64,000 nucleotides of DNA from GCA_000165345.1 CM000430.1:352001-416000, one strand, 5' to 3'; shown: positions 20,901-33,076, counted from the stretch's first letter. Made by a program: numbers and translations. The notes: a model not told the origin generated them from the letters alone.

Positions 20901-21946
<1,046 letters not shown>

Positions 21947-24706: not shown

Positions 24707-26337
24707 ATGAACAATAATTCAAAAAGGTAGGTAAATAATTTGCTTAAATATAAAAGATACTTTAAAATAAACATAACAAATATTAATGTTTTTTTTTGGA
24801 TTTTTAACAGGGCTCTAAAGTTAAACCTTCTTGATAACATTGAAAATCTTAAACAAAGCGTGTTGCTGAATAAGGCATCAATAGAGACAAATTATTTGGA
24901 AAGATGCGAGAAAGCAACAAAACATTGCATTACTAAAAATAATCACAAAGATGAGAATGAGGATAACTTAAGGCTGTTGTAAGTTAGGAAGGAGCTTTTA
25001 AAATAAACTTTCATTCAATAATAGGAGAAAAAGAGTTTCAATTAAGGATTTTAAAATTCTAAGCCCAATTGGCGCGGGAGCATTTGGTATAATTAGACTT
25101 GCGGAATGCAGGAACACAGGCAGCATTTATGCGCTAAAGCAAATGAGAAAAAGTATTATCAGAACAAAAAATCAGCTTGAAAGGATATACAATGAGAGAG
25201 CACTCCTGGCTCAAAATGCATCCGACTTTGTTGTAAAGTTATTTTACACATTTCAAGATGATAAACACTTATACCAAGTAATGGAGTATTTGCCTGGAGG
25301 GGACTTGATGTCATATTTAATAAAATATGATAAATTTAGTGAAGAAGACACTAGATTCTACATGGCGCAATTGGTTCATGCCGTTGATTTAGTTCATCAG
25401 TTAGGGTTTGTACACAGAGATGTAAAACCAGATAACATTGTTCTTGATTCTAAGGGGCATCTCAAATTATTAGATTTTGGGCTTTGCAAGTTTTCTCCAC
25501 TAATTGAAGGAGACGAAAATAGAGAATACCAAACAGAAAATCATTTAAGATGTGTCAATTTAAACGCTAAATCACATAAAGATAGTAATAAAGCTTCTGA
25601 AATTTCCTTTAATGAGAACAACGAAAACAAAAGAATTAACAAAGAACTTTATCGAGGATCAAATTTACTAGAAGAAAAGAATTGCCAAAATGAAGATTTA
25701 AATACTTCTCTGAAGCATTTGGACAGAAAGACAATTCATTCTACTGTAGGAACCCCACAGTATATGGCACCAGAAATATTTCTCAGACAAGGGTATACAC
25801 ATCTTGTAGATTGGTGGAGCGTGGGAATACTGATGTATGAATGTCTTTATGGAGGAGTACCATTTAATGATGATACGCATAACCCAATTAAAGTCGCAAT
25901 AAAAGTAATGCAGTGGGAAAAGTTATTATTACTCCCACATCCATGTAGAAAAATTTCGCCCGAAGCACTAGATCTACTAAAAAATTTATTGTGCCATCCT
26001 TCAAAAAGGTTTGATGGTGAACAGATTAAAAAGCATCCTTTTTTCAATGGTAAGTTTATAAATTTCGGTTAGTTTATTGAATTTATAACTTATGATAGAA
26101 ATTGATTGGGATAAATTAAGACAATGCCCTGCTCCATTCAACAAACAGATTAATGAGAATATATATAAAAGCAATGTTACGGCAGCAGAACTAATTGATG
26201 AGTCTCCAAACAACACAAGATATGGTGTTCAGGGTTCTTCACTAGTTGATATAAATTTCTTGGATTATACTTATAGGAATAAAGATCGTAATAATGATCC
26301 TATATCAATAGGAGAGGCCATTAAAATGTGCGGATGA
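24707..26337 (+). CDS. NDR/LATS-family AGC kinase (Cbk1/Orb6-like), 4 exons
   Basis: Exons 24707..24726, 24811..24978, 25025..26049, 26099..26337. EDNLRLL|RRKRVSIKDFKILSPIGAGAFG, HRDVKPDN, DFGLCK with an activation-segment insert, HPFFNG|EIDWDKLRQCPAPF AGC tail. First exon is tentative. Confidence 0.65.
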
Positions 26338-26391: not shown

Positions 26392-27939
26392 TTAATTATT
26401 TCGTTCTAAATCTAATATAGAATCAGTCTCAAGTATTTCATTTACGCTTGCACCGTTTTGAAGTGTTTCCGAATTGGTTAATGCAATAATTGCTAACAAA
26501 TCAGAATCTGAAGAGGAAAAATCTGAATCAAAATCACTATTTATACCCTTTTCAATATTATTTTTAAAGCTTTTTTTTCTTTTACTTTCTCCTTTTGTTG
26601 GCGAGATTTTGTCTTTATTTTGCAGCGGACTTTGGTTGTAAATGTGTGGTTTGTAATCACCGTTTACCCAATATTCGGAATTATGAATAGGTAGGGGAAC
26701 AGTATAAAAGGGGGAAATCAAATCAGAAAATTGACTCAATGCTTTAGAATGGATATCCCTTGCAGATTCAAGAGTTAAAGGAATTCTTTTTTGCAGCCTA
26801 TACTTTCCCTTTGATATTCCGGATTTCTTTTTGGTACATATTATCCTGAAGCACGAATAGAATCCTAAACTCATCATGCTATCCAATATAAGTGGATCTG
26901 TAAAGCCCTTTCCTCTTAATTTATCTAAAAGCTTTTCTTTTAAAATTTCTAGTTTAATATTTTTCTTTTCTGGAGGTTTGCTACTGTTTTCAGAGTTATT
27001 TCCAGATAAACTATTATTAAAATCAGAATGCGAACACTCATTGGTGTCAGAATCCGACCCTCCCTCTGTTCTATTATCATCTTTTGATAAGTCTTTCCTG
27101 GATTCATGAAAAGTTTCTGAAAAAATATTTTTTACTGAAGCTCCGTTGATGCCAATTTTAAAGGACACATATTTTTTTAACAGTATTTCTAATGCCTTTT
27201 CCGGGTTTATCTTCATTTCCTTTTGATTAACAGCGATTGTTTTCGTAATTCGAATTGCGGACGGTCTCCCGTTTGCTATCGAATAACCAAGTCTTTTTAA
27301 ATTGGTTGGCATTCTACTTCCAATTTTACTTGATCTTGTGGGATCTAAGGGGAACTCCACATTTTCGAAGCAAAATGGGAATGTTGCTTCTGGCTTAGTT
27401 TCTATCATTGCAATAATATCCCAATTCCTGTAAACACCTATGTTGAATAAACTCCATTCAATTTCCGCGAGTCCATTTGAACACTGAGAAATATCTATGC
27501 CTTTCGTCTTCTTCCATTGAACTGCAACAGTAAACAAGCCATGGCTTTTTTCTCCCTTATTTGTATTTAATACGTTACTTTCCTTTGAAAGCCTGCTCAA
27601 TGTACTATTATGTGGAATAATAAGCTGAGACTTTCCATGAAATAAAGTTAATTGAGTATCAAAGTCACTATTTACAAATTCGTTCGAAAAAGCATAGGAA
27701 CAAACTGTGGAAGGATCATTTTTAATGATTGAACTGTAGTCGCATTTTTTACATGAGATAGATGAGCTACAATCCGGTTCCTTTGGTGGCAGGAACGGAG
27801 TAAATACCTGTCCACCTTTACAGAGATTTCTGCAAATTCCAGTACTTACAATATCTTTGCCTTCTCTTAAAAAGGGAGGAAATCCATGAACAATCGTATT
27901 GCTAATGGATAAAAACAAAACAATTAGGATCAATCTCAT
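26392..27939 (-). CDS. secreted hypothetical protein with Cys-containing N-terminal region and Ser/Asp-rich acidic C-terminus
   Basis: Signal peptide MRLILIVLFLSISNTIVHG. The ORF-track start 27945 is a TTG, so the ATG at 27939 is used. Confidence 0.5.
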   Translation of the reverse strand: MRLILIVLFLSISNTIVHGFPPFLREGKDIVSTGICRNLCKGGQVFTPFLPPKEPDCSSSISCKKCDYSSIIKNDPSTVCSYAFSNEFVNSDFDTQLTLFHGKSQLIIPHNSTLSRLSKESNVLNTNKGEKSHGLFTVAVQWKKTKGIDISQCSNGLAEIEWSLFNIGVYRNWDIIAMIETKPEATFPFCFENVEFPLDPTRSSKIGSRMPTNLKRLGYSIANGRPSAIRITKTIAVNQKEMKINPEKALEILLKKYVSFKIGINGASVKNIFSETFHESRKDLSKDDNRTEGGSDSDTNECSHSDFNNSLSGNNSENSSKPPEKKNIKLEILKEKLLDKLRGKGFTDPLILDSMMSLGFYSCFRIICTKKKSGISKGKYRLQKRIPLTLESARDIHSKALSQFSDLISPFYTVPLPIHNSEYWVNGDYKPHIYNQSPLQNKDKISPTKGESKRKKSFKNNIEKGINSDFDSDFSSSDSDLLAIIALTNSETLQNGASVNEILETDSILDLERNN

Positions 27940-28042: not shown

Positions 28043-28052
28043 GTGGCGCCAC
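28043..28052. promoter_or_regulatory. palindromic GTGGCGCCAC (TGGCGCCA E2F-like box) ~100 bp upstream of the secreted-protein gene
   Basis: Perfect palindrome followed by a second GCGCCAG, in otherwise AT-rich DNA. Confidence 0.35.
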
Positions 28053-28098
28053 TGAAGCGCCAGTTATTTGAAGAGCCTAAAAACTAAATAATCGAAAA

Positions 28099-29079
28099 TC
28101 AGCCCATTCTTAAGATTCCCGCAGCCATCAATTTTTGAATTCCATTAGCAATTGTTGGATCCTGTATAACCTGTGTAAGAGTTGCAGGATTTTGTTTGAG
28201 CTGCTCTAGAACTAGTCTGAACTGAGGATCTGAAAGCAATGATTGTATTTCTGGATCCGCAAGCGCATGAGCTACCTGCTCCTCGTCGATTTGATCAGAT
28301 GAAGATACCTGCTGTATCTTTGCCATTGTGTTTTTTAGCCCTTCATTACACTCTTTATTATCAGGGTCGCATTTTAGCCCCTCTTGATATGCATGAAGCG
28401 CTTTATGATACTCTTTTAAAAAGTAATGAATATTTCCTTTCCTAGACCAAGCTTTAGTAAACTTTGGGTCTAAATCGAGGGCCTTCTGCACATCTATTAG
28501 GGCAGATGGGTACTCTAATAGTTGCATGTAGCACGCTGCTCTGTTGCTATATAATCTGGAGTCGCTTGGATTACGTTTAATGGCCTCGTCATATTCTTTC
28601 TTAGCGGCTGGGTAATTTTTTTGTTTAAATAAATCATTTCCTTCAATGCGATGTTTTTCTGCAAGTTCAGGATTAATGTATGCTTCCTTCTCTGCTTTCT
28701 CAATTAATCTCTCAAGTTCTTTAAGAGAAGTTCTTGTGTGCCTATTATTATCCTCTAACAGACTTTTCTCATACATTTCTTTTGCCTTCTGTAACTCGTT
28801 CATTTTAATGTAGCATGATGCCATCCTATTATATGCCTTAGCGACCTTTGTAAAGTCAGCTTTCACTTCGAATCGTTTTTCCAATGCCTGCATACAGACT
28901 TCTAGACATTTTTGGTATTCACCCATCTCTAGATAGACAGCACCTTTATTGGTTAAAAACGAAATATCGTTAGGATCTATTTCAATCGCCAGATCATATT
29001 GAACCAACGCTTCATCAAATTTCTTTTGCTTATAAAGTTCGTTACCTTTATTTTTGTAGAATTCAGCAGTTTTAGTCAT
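28099..29079 (-). CDS. STI1: Hsp70/Hsp90-organizing protein (HOP/STI1)-like, TPR2A-TPR2B-DP2 only
   Basis: Aligns along its length with the C-terminal half of HOP: TPR repeats, then DPEIQSLLSDPQFRLVLEQLKQNP (DP2/STI1 domain). No TPR1/DP1 coding potential in 29080..29293. Confidence 0.7.
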   Translation of the reverse strand: MTKTAEFYKNKGNELYKQKKFDEALVQYDLAIEIDPNDISFLTNKGAVYLEMGEYQKCLEVCMQALEKRFEVKADFTKVAKAYNRMASCYIKMNELQKAKEMYEKSLLEDNNRHTRTSLKELERLIEKAEKEAYINPELAEKHRIEGNDLFKQKNYPAAKKEYDEAIKRNPSDSRLYSNRAACYMQLLEYPSALIDVQKALDLDPKFTKAWSRKGNIHYFLKEYHKALHAYQEGLKCDPDNKECNEGLKNTMAKIQQVSSSDQIDEEQVAHALADPEIQSLLSDPQFRLVLEQLKQNPATLTQVIQDPTIANGIQKLMAAGILRMG

Positions 29080-29335
29080 TTTTCAAAACAATTTCCTTCC
29101 GATTTGTTTCAACTTAGTAACGTGAAGACAGGGGTATTTGTATAAACCGCAAAAATCGAGAGGATTTAAGCATTCATAATTGTTGAGATATATTAATCGA
29201 TTTCGTGATTAGATATGGTTGAGTATTCGGTACATAAAATTTGCTTTACTTTATATCTAATTTCATTACAGACTTGCCCGGATTCAATGACTCTTGGATA
29301 TTAGACTATCTAAATTTGCAATTAATCATTCGATA

Positions 29336-32300
29336 ATGCATTTTGAAAGCTCAGACAATAAAATTAAAGAACAAATTACTTTTTTGCTTAATAATGAAAA
29401 CACAAATTTCGATTCTTCAAAAGCAGAATTAATAAAGAGCTTAATTTTTTCTTGGAAAATATTTTCAGAGCGTATGGATATAGAGAGTGCGGAACAATTT
29501 ACAAATAGATTTATTAGCCTAATTGGGGAACATGTTTTTTCACAGTATTATACTACAAATGGAAAAATTAAACGCTTCTACACTCATTACGAAAATCCAT
29601 TTATAGTTTACTTGCATGTTTTGTACTTAAAATTTAGTCTAGGGAACTTTTCTGGTCCAATTTCTTGCACAAGCCTATTAAATATCTTGTTTGGTGATTG
29701 CAATACAGAATTTTCAAGGATTTTATATAGAATTCACATTTTTAAGATTCAGAATATGCTTCTTTTGATATCCTCTTATTATTTAAATATTAATTGGGGA
29801 TATATTTACAAATTAATTCCAGGGATATCAAATTTTAACTGTTCTAATGATGCATACTACACTCGAAATATTAAGAATAGAGGCGATGACTCGGCCATAG
29901 GTTTTATCGATTCTAATTTGCCTAGATATAACATTCACTTAAGCTCGTTTTTGGTTTTAAGAGATTGTATTTATATTGTGTTTTCATTAATTTATTATTC
30001 AAAAAGCAGAGATCTTGATGACTTTATAATCGATAATTATTGCGGACTACTAAAGGACATGACTTATCAAAAAACTCTATTATTGACTGGCCCTAAAATT
30101 TCAAACACAAATAATAGACTTACAGGTTCATTTAAATTAAAGGAAAGGTCTTGTATCACCTCAGCAATACCCCTGTTATATGTTTTAATACAATTTATTT
30201 CTAACTCAAATGAAACGGAAACAGTTGTAAATGAAATCATGTCTAGGATAACTAACGAACATATAATTGATTCTGGGCAGTATTTGAAGGATAACAAATT
30301 TTGTAGCGGAAATAATTCAAGAATTGATATTTCAAGTCCACAATTTGTAATTTCTCTGAAACCTTCTTACAAGTTCCCCGATTATAATAAATGTATTGAT
30401 ATTTTACTTAAAGGAGGAGAATTTTTGTTTGTGTATCCAGCACCAAATTTTTTAAATCTTTTAATAAAGAGAATAAGAGGCAATTATACTTTTGATGTAG
30501 GAATAGGTGATTTCAGCAAAAAAAATATGAATGAAAGCAGATTAAGTGCACTATTAGAAGAATTTTTTCCGAAAGTAATGCTTAAACTATCTAAAGATTT
30601 GACACATTTGATCATTGAGGAAATATCAAATGAAACTAAGACTAGAGCTAGAGGCTTATCTACAATTAGTGTTGAGACTTATAAAGAGAAAGGGATTAGA
30701 TCTATCTTTAAAAGAAGACCCAAGAAAAAAAAAATCCCTATTGAAAATATTGTCGCTACAAGCATTGGTTATTCATCAAGGCCAGAATCTATTCCTATGC
30801 CGAGCCCTGGAATGAATATACCTTGTTTTTGCTGTATTCAAAGTGAGTTAGATGGCGCTTCATTATTTTATAGAACACTGAACATCCATACAAATAAAAG
30901 ATGTTTTAAATTACTTTCTGTTAAGACCCAAGATTTATGTGTTAAGCAATGGCATGCTATTATTAGGCAATTCATGGATTTAAAATTTCATCAAGTTCAA
31001 GCAAGTAATCCAATTTCAAAAAACTTAATTAAGATAACTAAAAGTAAGAAATACAATAAAATAGCAAATTGCTTACTTAATTCATGCAAAATAATTGATA
31101 AATGGTATGAAGAGGTTCTTCCAAAATGGGGAACACATTGGAATTGTAATTCAATGCCTGTTTCTATTCATAATTTATCTCTTAGCAGAAATCAAAATAT
31201 TAATAAGAATAGAAACGAATCTGAATATACAAAGCTTTATTTTGGAAAATATTTAAAGAATATTTCTCAGACATTTCAGCCGGATAGCTTCAATTTCTCG
31301 TTTTTTGGATCTCACTGGCTAAATCAAAATAATAGCATGCACATATTTGTGAATAGACCCAGATTAACCGTATTAAAATCATTTCAAAATTTAAAAGGAT
31401 ATTCAATGGAAAATGTTTGTTCTAGTGAGAATGGGAATAGCGTATCAAATTGGATTAATTTTTTGCAGTATAAATTACATAGTTCATATCCTTTGTACAC
31501 ATTTCCAATCATTGATAGAGGAGTAAGATTTGGAGCTCCCAATTCACAACTTTTGAGCGATCTATGGTCCATTGGAATTCCAAATGATATAAGGAATAAA
31601 ATTTGGAAAATAGCTTTGGGAAATGATTTGAAGGTATCAAATGAACTTTTTAATATTTTAAATTTACAAAGCAAATTAAATATAGATAAGAATGATGATA
31701 GTTCAACAAATTCTGTTATTTTTCGCTATGCTCTAGAAATACAGTACATTTTTTATAATAAAAAAAGGAATTCCAACATAGGCAAAAAGTTGTCACCTTA
31801 CATTGAAAGGAAAGTTGAAGTATTAAATTCCTCGGCATCATTTTACTATCCGTACTTTTTTTCACAGAAGTGCGGATTTGCAAGGGAATTTGATTACTCA
31901 ACTTTTAAATATGAAGAAGCCGATATTTCACTCCCGCTGATAAACACAGATGAGTATTTTATTGATATAAATAATGTTTATATTTCGAAAAGAATGATAA
32001 AAACAGATTCATTAGACAATGAACTATTCATTAATAGAAGCAATTTTGAACAGATCAAGAGTTCTGATGATATAAAGTTTATAGATAGTTTAAATTCTGA
32101 ATCAATGCTTGCTTTAGATTTCTCTTCATTAGAAGCATTAAAATTAAATAAGTTTATTCAATACCATGAAGTTTCTAATACTCATAGTAATTCGTTCTTT
32201 CAAGAAAACATGGATTTGTTGAAGAAAAATGATACTGGAAATCCAAGCTCGATCACGATAATTAAGGGGTTACTTGATACAATTGCAGCATTAATATCAC

Positions 32301-33076
32301 ATATACCTAACATTGGCTTCCAACCTTGCTTAATAAATTATTTGTCCGTATTTTTGATGTATATGGACCCTCCTAGCGCATTTAAATGTATGTTAAATCT
32401 GATAAATTCTTTTGATTTTCTTTTTATTTCAAGCGACATAACTTCAAATTCATTTGAAAGCATTGACAAATGTTCAATTGGATTGCTATCAGAACCTTCA
32501 ACTGGAAGTCTCCTTTTAAATTCACATTATCATAATCAATTTTTATATAATGATAATATTTGGATTTTGTTTTCTCATATTTTCCAAAGCTTTGTATATT
32601 CAAAATTACCACAGCTGTACCAGCACTTGTTATATACGATTGGTATACATTTCGAAAGTGTAGTTACTCCATGGTTCAGGCACATATTTATGGATACATT
32701 ATCACTTCCTGTCGTACTTATCATTTGGGATAACTTTCTTTTACTTGGGTTACCTTTACTTTTTCAAGCTGGTCTTTCTTTATTAAAGCTTTGCGAACCA
32801 CAACTTTTGAAGTGTGAAAACATTTTGGATACTTTGAATCTTTTATTAAATAACTGCGACTATAACTCATTCGTGATAAAGGCAGATTCATTTACAAATA
32901 CATTGAGAGAAATGCAGAAAGTATGTGACATTACAGAGATCACGTCTATTACTTCACAATACAAGTTGATTGAACAAAAAAGATGGATATTGAGGAATCA
33001 ACAATCGGTTAGGAACTATCTTCTTAGTCAAGGCTATTACTGTACCTCGACTCCCAACACTCCGAAAGGAAGATAG
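29336..33076 (+). CDS. large protein with a divergent TBC (Rab-GAP)-like domain in its C-terminal half
   Basis: WSIGIPNDIRNKIWKIALGN (TBC N-terminal signature) ... GFQPCLINYLSVFLMYM ... PWFRHIFMDTLSLPVVLIIWDNFLLLG. ORF-track start 29294 is a TTG, so the first ATG at 29336 is used. Confidence 0.45.
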   Translation: MHFESSDNKIKEQITFLLNNENTNFDSSKAELIKSLIFSWKIFSERMDIESAEQFTNRFISLIGEHVFSQYYTTNGKIKRFYTHYENPFIVYLHVLYLKFSLGNFSGPISCTSLLNILFGDCNTEFSRILYRIHIFKIQNMLLLISSYYLNINWGYIYKLIPGISNFNCSNDAYYTRNIKNRGDDSAIGFIDSNLPRYNIHLSSFLVLRDCIYIVFSLIYYSKSRDLDDFIIDNYCGLLKDMTYQKTLLLTGPKISNTNNRLTGSFKLKERSCITSAIPLLYVLIQFISNSNETETVVNEIMSRITNEHIIDSGQYLKDNKFCSGNNSRIDISSPQFVISLKPSYKFPDYNKCIDILLKGGEFLFVYPAPNFLNLLIKRIRGNYTFDVGIGDFSKKNMNESRLSALLEEFFPKVMLKLSKDLTHLIIEEISNETKTRARGLSTISVETYKEKGIRSIFKRRPKKKKIPIENIVATSIGYSSRPESIPMPSPGMNIPCFCCIQSELDGASLFYRTLNIHTNKRCFKLLSVKTQDLCVKQWHAIIRQFMDLKFHQVQASNPISKNLIKITKSKKYNKIANCLLNSCKIIDKWYEEVLPKWGTHWNCNSMPVSIHNLSLSRNQNINKNRNESEYTKLYFGKYLKNISQTFQPDSFNFSFFGSHWLNQNNSMHIFVNRPRLTVLKSFQNLKGYSMENVCSSENGNSVSNWINFLQYKLHSSYPLYTFPIIDRGVRFGAPNSQLLSDLWSIGIPNDIRNKIWKIALGNDLKVSNELFNILNLQSKLNIDKNDDSSTNSVIFRYALEIQYIFYNKKRNSNIGKKLSPYIERKVEVLNSSASFYYPYFFSQKCGFAREFDYSTFKYEEADISLPLINTDEYFIDINNVYISKRMIKTDSLDNELFINRSNFEQIKSSDDIKFIDSLNSESMLALDFSSLEALKLNKFIQYHEVSNTHSNSFFQENMDLLKKNDTGNPSSITIIKGLLDTIAALISHIPNIGFQPCLINYLSVFLMYMDPPSAFKCMLNLINSFDFLFISSDITSNSFESIDKCSIGLLSEPSTGSLLLNSHYHNQFLYNDNIWILFSHIFQSFVYSKLPQLYQHLLYTIGIHFESVVTPWFRHIFMDTLSLPVVLIIWDNFLLLGLPLLFQAGLSLLKLCEPQLLKCENILDTLNLLLNNCDYNSFVIKADSFTNTLREMQKVCDITEITSITSQYKLIEQKRWILRNQQSVRNYLLSQGYYCTSTPNTPKGR

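What the first reader, a model, noticed from the sequence alone, without database searches (positions are those of the whole stretch)
28099..29293. HOP/STI1 homologue lacking the TPR1-DP1 (Hsp70-binding) half
The 326-aa protein aligns end to end with TPR2A-TPR2B-DP2 of HOP and begins with its own ATG. The 215 bp upstream, before the next gene on the opposite strand, has no coding potential or splice signals. Canonical HOP uses TPR1 to bind the Hsp70 EEVD tail. A naturally short HOP is known in C. elegans but is unusual, and implies altered Hsp70-Hsp90 client hand-off.
Basis: partly seen in the sequence, partly recalled or inferred. Interest (0 to 1): 0.5.

Follow-up and report, generated by a model that had tools for sequence, protein, structure and literature searches.

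The report
Naturally short HOP co-chaperone of Cryptosporidium
This is the real Cryptosporidium parvum gene for the Hsp70-Hsp90 adaptor HOP/STI1, which in the whole genus lacks the first two of the five usual domains; that is a modest curiosity, because the part that remains is the known minimal working module and similar short forms exist in nematodes, Perkinsus and dust mites.

Summary
Window 28099-29079 (-) is an intact single-exon ORF of 326 aa, identical to the annotated C. parvum 'stress-induced protein sti1-like protein'. It aligns from residue 8 to 324 with human HOP 228-541, which is TPR2A-TPR2B-DP2. There is an in-frame stop two codons upstream. Only 256 bp separate it from a divergent RabGAP gene, and nothing like TPR1-DP1 occurs elsewhere in the 64 kb. 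At least eleven Cryptosporidium species or genotypes carry the same 325-326 aa protein. Gene order was the same in the three other species whose loci I examined. The gene is under strong purifying selection (dN/dS 0.04). Other apicomplexans, gregarines included, have the 540-570 aa five-domain form.

The retained module looks fully canonical. All ten carboxylate-clamp positions are kept, and 86 of 90 highly conserved columns match the consensus. The AF2 model (pLDDT 91) superposes on Hop in the Hsp90-Hsp70-Hop-GR complex.

TPR2B is itself an Hsp70 site, and TPR2A-TPR2B-DP2 is the published minimal functional unit. An altered client hand-off is therefore possible but not implied. Short HOPs also arose independently in Perkinsus and its environmental relatives, in Dermatophagoides mites and in C. 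elegans. My verdict is a new member of a known kind, of low to moderate interest.

The parts
28099..29079 (-). Complete single-exon CDS of the short HOP/STI1 (326 aa plus TGA stop at 28099-28101)
   Evidence: ORF list. The sequence is identical to C. parvum EAZ51382.1 / QOY43048.1 (P0151). The exact protein is called as a 326-aa gene in two NCBI assemblies and many Logan runs.
28678..29079 (-). TPR2A domain (residues 1-134), the predicted Hsp90 MEEVD-binding site; clamp residues K9, N13, N44, K81, R85
   Evidence: Aligns with human HOP 228-~355 and with the TPR2A structures 1elr and 3esk. Clamp mapping. Seven helices in the AF2 model.
28300..28677 (-). TPR2B domain (residues 135-260), the predicted Hsp70 EEVD-binding site; clamp residues R144, N148, N179, K209, R213
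   Evidence: Matches 2lni (human TPR2B) and 4gco (C. elegans STI-1 central domain; TMt 0.94, 44% identity). Clamp mapping.
28285..28299 (-). Short linker between TPR2B and DP2 (residues 261-265, within the SSSDQID segment)
   Evidence: Non-helical stretch in the model. It is 92-100% identical within the genus.
28102..28284 (-). DP2 domain (residues 266-326), five helices, the predicted client- and Hsp90-contacting domain
   Evidence: Pfam PF17830 at 265-319, E 2e-15. Five helices in the model. Human DP2 contact and pocket positions are conserved or replaced by the common alveolate residue.
29080..29335 (.). 256-bp divergent intergenic spacer upstream of HOP; in-frame TGA at 29083-29085; no coding potential
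   Evidence: 30% GC against 38% in the CDS; 4-8 stops per frame. The equivalent spacer is 203 bp in C. muris and 180 bp in C. ryanae.
29336..33076 (+). Divergently transcribed neighbour, a RabGAP-TBC protein (1246 aa); it bounds the HOP promoter region
   Evidence: Pfam PF00566. Annotated as 1246 aa in the public assemblies, with conserved position and orientation in C. muris, C. ryanae and C. ubiquitum.
26392..27939 (-). Downstream neighbour on the same strand: a 515-aa protein without Pfam match, syntenic across the genus

Best explanation
The locus is the single, genuine HOP/STI1 gene of Cryptosporidium parvum (chromosome 2). The common ancestor of the genus lost the N-terminal TPR1-DP1 module and kept the rigid TPR2A-TPR2B-DP2 module.

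Inferred mechanism:
- TPR2A clamps the MEEVD tail of cytosolic Hsp90.
- TPR2B clamps the EEVD tail of cytosolic Hsp70.
- DP2 contacts Hsp90 and the client.

The protein would therefore still assemble the client-loading complex and hold Hsp90 in the semi-closed state. It would lack the flexible TPR1-DP1 arm that, in yeast, recruits Hsp70-client and removes Hsp70 after transfer.

Shown here: gene structure, domain content, conservation, selection, and an intact set of binding-site residues. Inferred from the homologues, not tested here: the binding partners and the hand-off.
For: Gene structure:
- Intact ORF with an in-frame upstream stop.
- No TPR1-DP1 coding sequence anywhere in the 64-kb window, nor in the 13-kb orthologous loci of C. 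muris and C. ryanae.
- The 325-326 aa form is found in C. parvum, hominis, meleagridis, ubiquitum, canis, felis, muris, ryanae, xiaoi and chipmunk genotype I. For C. tyzzeri only a 75-aa fragment is on record.
- The gene order WD40 / RabGAP(-) / HOP(+) / orphan / kinase is conserved.

Orthology and selection:
- The sequence nests as one clade among full-length apicomplexan HOPs.
- dN/dS is 0.042 between C. parvum and C. ubiquitum.

Intact functional sites:
- All 10 clamp positions are kept.
- 86 of 90 columns that are at least 80% conserved in 94 full-length HOPs carry the consensus residue. The only genus-fixed differences are M273L and I281L.
- DP2 contact residues are conserved.
- The AF2 model has pLDDT 91.3. 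Its best fold matches are 7kw7_E (TM 0.74 over 324 columns) and yeast TPR2A-TPR2B 3uq3 (TMt 0.87).

Literature:
- TPR2A-TPR2B-DP2 is the minimal functional module, and the only part of Hop seen in the GR-loading complex. There TPR2A holds the Hsp90 tail and TPR2B the Hsp70 tail (PMC8629791; PMC4403447; PMC9138868).
Against: - No transcript data could be consulted.
- The C. parvum genome outside the window could not be scanned at DNA level. Absence of a second HOP or of a stand-alone TPR1-DP1 gene rests on protein-database searches. One of these returned only short proteins and is of limited power.
- The EEVD tails of C. parvum Hsp70 and Hsp90 were not verified here. They are only implied by papers that aligned those proteins.
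- C. elegans short Hop was reported to bind Hsp70 and Hsp90 competitively rather than simultaneously (PMC8629791). True bridging by a TPR1-less HOP is therefore not guaranteed.
Confidence: 0.8

Rival explanations
1. The short HOP is a competitive, binary adaptor as reported for C. elegans. It binds either Hsp70 or Hsp90 but does not bridge them, and client transfer relies mainly on direct Hsp70-Hsp90 contact. The hand-off would then really be altered.
For: The architecture is the same as CeHop, for which only binary complexes were reported (review PMC8629791). TPR2B binds both tails with low selectivity. The TPR1-DP1 arm proposed to recruit and recycle Hsp70 is absent.
Against: Yeast TPR2A-TPR2B-DP2 alone forms ternary complexes and gives about 80% GR activation. 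In the human loading complex only these three domains are engaged. The Cryptosporidium module is sequence-canonical at every functional position examined.
Confidence: 0.3
2. TPR1-DP1 is not lost but encoded elsewhere, either as a separate gene (split HOP) or within a second, full-length HOP paralogue.
For: The rest of the genome could not be scanned directly. One search was a weak test, because it returned only proteins of 338 aa or fewer and just 14 hits.
Against: No full-length Cryptosporidium protein appears among the 120 best hits (at least 361 bits), where other apicomplexan HOPs score 400-520 bits and six Cryptosporidium clusters (one per species, or per set of close species) appear with the short form only. 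No Cryptosporidium protein is among the stand-alone TPR1-DP1-like hits, and the one NCBI cluster there is made of Daphnia fragments.
Confidence: 0.05
3. The short form is an annotation artefact: the true gene has upstream exon(s) encoding TPR1-DP1.
For: Introns do exist in this genome. For example, the Hsp40 gene 7 kb away has a 9-nt first exon and a 56-nt GTAAGT...TAG intron.
Against: TGA lies two codons upstream. The spacer to a divergent gene is only 256 bp, but about 660 nt of coding sequence would be needed. No TPR1-like translation occurs in any frame of the 64 kb. The same boundaries are found in the four other species' loci examined and in independent annotations.
Confidence: 0.02
4. 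The gene is a decaying remnant of HOP without function.
For: Two of five domains are gone.
Against: dN/dS is 0.042, with 83% amino-acid identity to C. muris although synonymous sites are saturated. The ORF is intact in every species examined, and the clamp and DP2 residues are kept.
Confidence: 0.01

Closest known systems
C. elegans STI-1 / CeHop (non-canonical Hop lacking TPR1 and DP1; Gaiser 2009 and Song 2009, as summarised in PMC8629791)
   Same: The architecture is the same: TPR2A-TPR2B-DP2 with its own start codon, about 320 aa. The C. elegans TPR2A structure (4gcn) aligns from query residue 1, and TPR2B (4gco) superposes with TMt 0.94 at 44% identity.
   Different: The loss is independent, nematode against apicomplexan. 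The Cryptosporidium protein nests among full-length apicomplexan HOPs. No biochemistry exists for the Cryptosporidium protein.
TPR2A-TPR2B-DP2 module of yeast Sti1 / human HOP (engineered truncation; PDB 3UQ3, 7KW7)
   Same: End-to-end alignment with human residues 228-541. Clamp residues and DP2 contacts are conserved, and the predicted fold superposes. This module is the published minimal functional unit.
   Different: In yeast and human it is part of a five-domain protein with a flexible TPR1-DP1 arm. Here it is the whole protein.
Full-length apicomplexan HOPs (PfHop, Toxoplasma, Babesia, Eimeria, gregarines)
   Same: They are orthologues, with 52-62% identity over the shared module.
   Different: They carry 214-245 extra N-terminal residues, namely TPR1, DP1 and a charged linker.
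Perkinsus spp. HOP (334-335 aa; some copies annotated 'PfPP5, putative') and the 337-338 aa environmental relatives
   Same: They are also TPR2A-start short HOPs of alveolate parasites, about 50-52% identical to the query over its full length. The environmental relatives have very compact genomes.
   Different: They form a separate clade, sister to dinoflagellate-type HOPs, and share an insertion (NSxxPGGxSxEK) in TPR2A. The truncation is therefore independent.

Membership tests
HOP/STI1 (Hsp70-Hsp90 organising protein) | TPR2A domain with the two-carboxylate clamp (human K229, N233, N264, K301, R305) | tested here: met
   K9, N13, N44, K81 and R85 are all identical. The domain matches 1elr, 3esk and 7kw7.
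HOP/STI1 (Hsp70-Hsp90 organising protein) | TPR2B domain with clamp (human K364, N368, N399, K429, R433), rigidly joined to TPR2A | tested here: met
   R144 (R in 70 and K in 43 of 122 sequences), N148, N179, K209 and R213. The model superposes on yeast TPR2A-TPR2B 3uq3, TMt 0.87, rmsd 3.0.
HOP/STI1 (Hsp70-Hsp90 organising protein) | C-terminal DP2 (STI1/HOP DP domain, five helices) | tested here: met
   PF17830 scores 56.9 bits against a cut-off of 29.1. The model has five helices at 266-319. Contact residues are conserved.
HOP/STI1 (Hsp70-Hsp90 organising protein) | N-terminal TPR1 domain (high-affinity Hsp70 tail site) | tested here: not met
   Absent from the protein, from the 256-bp upstream spacer and from the whole window.
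HOP/STI1 (Hsp70-Hsp90 organising protein) | DP1 domain and charged linker | tested here: not met
   Only one DP match, at the C-terminus. There are 0 residues before the TPR2A start, against 214-248 in full-length homologues.
HOP/STI1 (Hsp70-Hsp90 organising protein) | Orthology: groups with HOPs of related organisms rather than with other TPR co-chaperones (SGT, PP5, CHIP, Tom70, RPAP3) | tested here: met
   HOPs score 360-670 bits. SGT, PP5, CHIP and Tom70 chains score 50-67 bits on one TPR domain only. An NJ tree places the genus inside the apicomplexan HOPs (no bootstrap was run).
HOP/STI1 (Hsp70-Hsp90 organising protein) | Binds Hsp90 MEEVD and Hsp70 EEVD tails; inhibits the Hsp90 ATPase | not testable with these tools
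   Inferred from conserved residues only. The partner tails in C. parvum were not verified here.
TPR1-less 'non-canonical' Hop (an architectural class typified by C. elegans STI-1) | The whole protein is TPR2A-TPR2B-DP2, translated from its own start codon | tested here: met
TPR1-less 'non-canonical' Hop (an architectural class typified by C. elegans STI-1) | Common descent with the nematode short form | tested here: not met
   The Cryptosporidium clade sits among full-length apicomplexan HOPs. The class is a convergent architecture, not a clade.
TPR1-less 'non-canonical' Hop (an architectural class typified by C. elegans STI-1) | Competitive binary complexes with Hsc70 or Hsp90 | not testable with these tools
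   Reported for CeHop; unknown here.

The most novel reading that the evidence does not exclude
Loss of TPR1-DP1 is a recurrent, adaptive simplification of the Hsp70-Hsp90 relay. It has happened in Cryptosporidium, in Perkinsus and its environmental relatives with highly compacted genomes, in nematodes and in dust mites. In Cryptosporidium the loss would be compensated on the Hsp70 side, for instance by its unusually long GGMP-repeat tail. That tail has eleven repeats, the most among the Hsp70s compared in PMC7926355, and GGMP repeats aid PfHop binding. The parasite would then run a mechanistically distinct, possibly binary, hand-off that differs from the host's and could be targeted selectively.
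Probability: 0.2. Interest if true: 0.5.

Novelty: new member of a known kind. Interest (0 to 1): 0.28.

Why it matters
It gives a second, independently evolved and genus-wide natural example of the minimal HOP, in a human pathogen, beside the C. elegans example. Together with Perkinsus it shows that the TPR1-DP1 arm is evolutionarily dispensable. That supports the view from yeast truncations and from the cryo-EM loading complex that TPR2A-TPR2B-DP2 is the functional core. It also offers a natural system in which to ask what TPR1-DP1 adds. For Cryptosporidium biology it marks a host-parasite difference in the Hsp90 machinery, although not a large one. The gene is already annotated in public databases, and the architecture can be read off any domain scan, so the gain in knowledge is modest.

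Tried and rejected
1. Hidden upstream exons. I checked the in-frame stop, the stops in all frames of the spacer, and tblastn of three TPR1-DP1 queries against the window and against the C. parvum, C. muris and C. ryanae loci. All were negative.

2. Stand-alone TPR1-DP1 gene. A database search with the TPR1-DP1 of the closest full-length relative (P0006) returned only 14 short proteins and none of the full-length HOPs. The tool evidently favours hits of similar length. The only NCBI-derived cluster was Daphnia fragments. This is a weak negative.

3. Intermediate-length homologues as evidence for stepwise loss. P0118 (396 aa) is a partial isoform of a 572-aa Siedleckia protein. Several other 370-510 aa hits lack a start methionine or sit on contigs barely longer than the gene, and none was taken as evidence of stepwise loss.

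4. Compensatory remodelling of the retained module. I looked for genus-fixed changes at conserved columns and found only M273L and I281L.

5. Promoter and terminator consensus scans, and the GGCGCC motif, did not exceed chance.

6. Literature. Five full-text searches for Cryptosporidium with HOP/Sti1/TPR1 found no paper describing this truncation. Johnson & Brown 2009, the survey most likely to mention it, is not held.

Only indirect literature support exists.

Full report
WHAT IS THERE. The window is AT-rich (about 30% GC) and gene-dense. The ORF at 28099..29079 on the minus strand starts with ATG and encodes 326 aa. Pfam finds six TPR stretches and one STI1/HOP DP domain at residues 265-319. 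Against all PDB chains the best match is human HOP in the Hsp90-Hsp70-Hop-GR complex (7kw7_E, E 5.6e-102). Query residues 8-324 align with chain residues 228-541 of 543, which is TPR2A-TPR2B-DP2. The TPR1-DP1 part of human HOP aligns only as a weaker paralogous stretch onto the query's TPR2B-DP2.

ORGANISM AND ANNOTATION. The protein is identical to the C. parvum 'stress-induced protein sti1-like protein' (EAZ51382.1, QOY43048.1/CPATCC_000751, WKS76481.1, KAL5369978.1). It lies on ~992-kb chromosome records of two NCBI assemblies. The gene is thus already annotated, everywhere as a single exon of 326 aa.

IS THE SHORT FORM REAL? Five lines of evidence say yes.
- A TGA lies in frame two codons upstream of the ATG. 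The three minus-strand frames of the spacer carry 4-8 stops each. The spacer is 30% GC against 38% for the CDS.
- Only 256 bp separate the ATG from the ATG (29336) of a divergently transcribed RabGAP-TBC gene. TPR1-DP1 would need about 660 nt.
- tblastn with TPR1-DP1 of Toxoplasma, Gregarina and Plasmodium finds nothing in the 64 kb except paralogous hits inside the HOP ORF itself.
- A real intron in this window looks quite different. The Sis1-type Hsp40 gene 7 kb away has a 9-nt first exon (21938-21946) and a 56-nt GTAAGT...TAG intron.
- The form is genus-wide. C. hominis, meleagridis, ubiquitum, canis, felis, muris, ryanae, xiaoi and chipmunk genotype I all have 325-326 aa proteins. For C. 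tyzzeri only a 75-aa fragment is on record.

In C. muris, C. ryanae and C. ubiquitum the gene sits in the same order (WD40 / RabGAP, divergent / HOP / orphan 515-547 aa / kinase), with spacers of 180-262 bp and no TPR1-like sequence. The loss therefore predates the split between the gastric and intestinal lineages of the genus.

IS IT FUNCTIONAL? dN/dS between C. parvum and C. ubiquitum is 0.042 (dN 0.036, dS 0.87). Against C. muris and C. ryanae synonymous sites are saturated, while the protein stays 80-83% identical. All ten carboxylate-clamp positions are kept: TPR2A K9/N13/N44/K81/R85 and TPR2B R144/N148/N179/K209/R213. R144 is the majority residue among 122 HOPs. Of the 90 columns that are at least 80% conserved in 94 full-length HOPs, C. 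parvum has the consensus residue in 86. The only genus-fixed departures are the conservative M273L and I281L. The DP2 residues that contact Hsp90 and the client helix in the human complex (listed in PMC9138868) are conserved or carry the residue common in alveolates. An AlphaFold2 model built on a 56-sequence alignment has mean pLDDT 91.3, with 7+7 TPR helices and a five-helix DP2. Its best structural matches are 7kw7_E (TM 0.74 over 324 columns), yeast TPR2A-TPR2B 3uq3 (TMt 0.87, rmsd 3.0 A) and C. elegans STI-1 TPR2B 4gco (TMt 0.94). There is no sign of decay and none of compensatory remodelling.

PHYLOGENETIC SETTING. All other apicomplexan HOPs retrieved are 535-571 aa and carry 214-245 residues before the point where the Cryptosporidium protein starts. 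These include Plasmodium, Babesia, Theileria, Toxoplasma, Eimeria and Cardiosporidium, and the gregarines Gregarina, Porospora, Protomagalhaensia and Siedleckia. In a simple BLOSUM62 NJ tree of the shared module the Cryptosporidium sequences form one clade among these (no support values). No full-length Cryptosporidium HOP appears among the 120 best hits, where one would be expected to score like the other apicomplexan HOPs. A search with a TPR1-DP1 query found no stand-alone Cryptosporidium protein, but this search returned only short proteins and is a weak test.

HOW IT MOST LIKELY WORKS. This is an inference from homologues. In Sti1/HOP, TPR2A binds the Hsp90 MEEVD tail. TPR2B binds the Hsp70 tail and is the high-affinity Hsp70 site in the context of TPR2A-TPR2B. 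DP2 is needed for client activation. The TPR2A-TPR2B-DP2 fragment alone gives about 80% of wild-type GR activation in yeast. TPR1-DP1 is proposed to recruit Hsp70-client and to remove Hsp70 afterwards (PMC4403447; PMC8629791). In the cryo-EM loading complex only these three domains of Hop are visible, with TPR2A on the Hsp90 tail and TPR2B on the Hsp70 tail (PMC9138868). The Cryptosporidium protein is exactly this core. The economical reading is therefore a working Hsp70-Hsp90 adaptor without the recruiting arm. The main mechanistic alternative is the behaviour reported for C. elegans Hop, namely competitive binary complexes. I cannot exclude it and give it about 0.3.

'Lacking the Hsp70-binding half' is inaccurate, because an Hsp70 site (TPR2B) is retained. 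'Implies altered hand-off' is possible but not implied. 'Unusual' needs qualifying. An exhaustive HMMER search of 1.84 billion cluster representatives lists six clusters of 325-350 aa whose match starts within the first 15 residues among the best 150. These are Perkinsus marinus/olseni/chesapeaki (334-335 aa), two Dermatophagoides proteins (325 and 333 aa), two unnamed metagenomic ones, and one (P0397) whose 90% cluster also holds a 574-aa Pelomyxa HOP and so may be a fragment.

A 337-338 aa environmental group related to Perkinsus sits in an extremely compact genome, only 60-94 bp from a divergent upstream gene. Its Rpt5 neighbour is 77% identical to that of P. marinus. This group shares a TPR2A insertion with dinoflagellate-type HOPs and is sister to them in the tree, so its truncation is independent of the Cryptosporidium one.

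NOVELTY. Nothing in the searchable literature describes the Cryptosporidium truncation. The survey most likely to mention it is not held. The gene itself is annotated and the architecture class is known, so this is a new member of a known kind.

LIMITS.
- No transcript evidence was available.
- No DNA-level scan of the rest of the genome was possible.
- The partner EEVD tails were not verified here; the support is only indirect.
- The tree has no support values.

Noticed in passing
L007:8001-9014 (ENA ERZ27275342 k141_7679323); also L009:444-1460; proteins P0089, P0099, P0106, P0112, P0113, P0117, P0299: There is a second, independent lineage of short HOPs. Perkinsus marinus, P. olseni and P. 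chesapeaki have 334-335 aa forms, and a metagenome-only relative has 337-338 aa forms. The relative has a very compact, apparently intron-poor genome with 30-130 bp spacers, and its HOP lies 60-94 bp from a divergent gene. The neighbouring Rpt5 is 77% identical to that of P. marinus. Some P. marinus copies are annotated as 'serine/threonine protein phosphatase PfPP5, putative', which looks like a misannotation.
   Followed up: partly
proteins P0400 (325 aa) and P0348 (333 aa), Dermatophagoides farinae / D. pteronyssinus: House dust mites carry two short TPR2A-start HOP-like proteins. P0400 looks like a metazoan STIP1. P0348 is 46% identical to the Cryptosporidium protein and resembles protist HOPs in the TPR2B region, which raises the question of contamination, symbiont origin or gene transfer.
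   Followed up: no
window 20901-21946 (-): A Sis1-type Hsp40/DnaJ gene (J domain, G/F-rich region, DnaJ_C, no zinc finger; 329 aa) lies 7 kb from HOP. It has a 9-nt first exon ATGGGTAAG (21938-21946) and a 56-nt GTAAGT...TAG intron (21882-21937). Two components of the Hsp70 system thus lie close together on chromosome 2; there is no evidence of co-regulation.
   Followed up: partly
window 25143-26337 (+): A protein kinase gene appears as two ORFs (25143-26072 and 26092-26337). In the NCBI assemblies these are joined into one 483-aa product, but the gene calls on the Logan contigs leave them as separate 309-aa and 81-aa genes. The likely cause is a short intron containing the stop.
   Followed up: no
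window 26392-27939 (-): A 515-aa protein with no Pfam match has a hydrophobic N-terminus (MRLILIVLFLSISNTIVHG) and a Ser/Asn-rich, low-complexity middle. It is conserved in position in C. muris (547 aa) and C. ryanae (525 aa). It may be a genus-specific secreted protein.
   Followed up: no
window 28044-28062 (+): A palindromic TGGCGCCA...GCGCCA element lies in the 158-bp spacer between the HOP stop and the start of the downstream orphan gene. From my own knowledge, GGCGCC-type (E2F-like) motifs are typical of Cryptosporidium promoters. There are only two GGCGCC sites in the window, which is not more than chance (40 of 100 shuffles).
   Followed up: partly
literature, PMC7926355: C. parvum cytosolic Hsp70 is reported to have eleven GGMP repeats before its C-terminus, the most among the species compared. 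GGMP repeats contribute to PfHsp70-1 binding to PfHop. This may be relevant to a HOP that has lost TPR1, but the link is untested.
   Followed up: no
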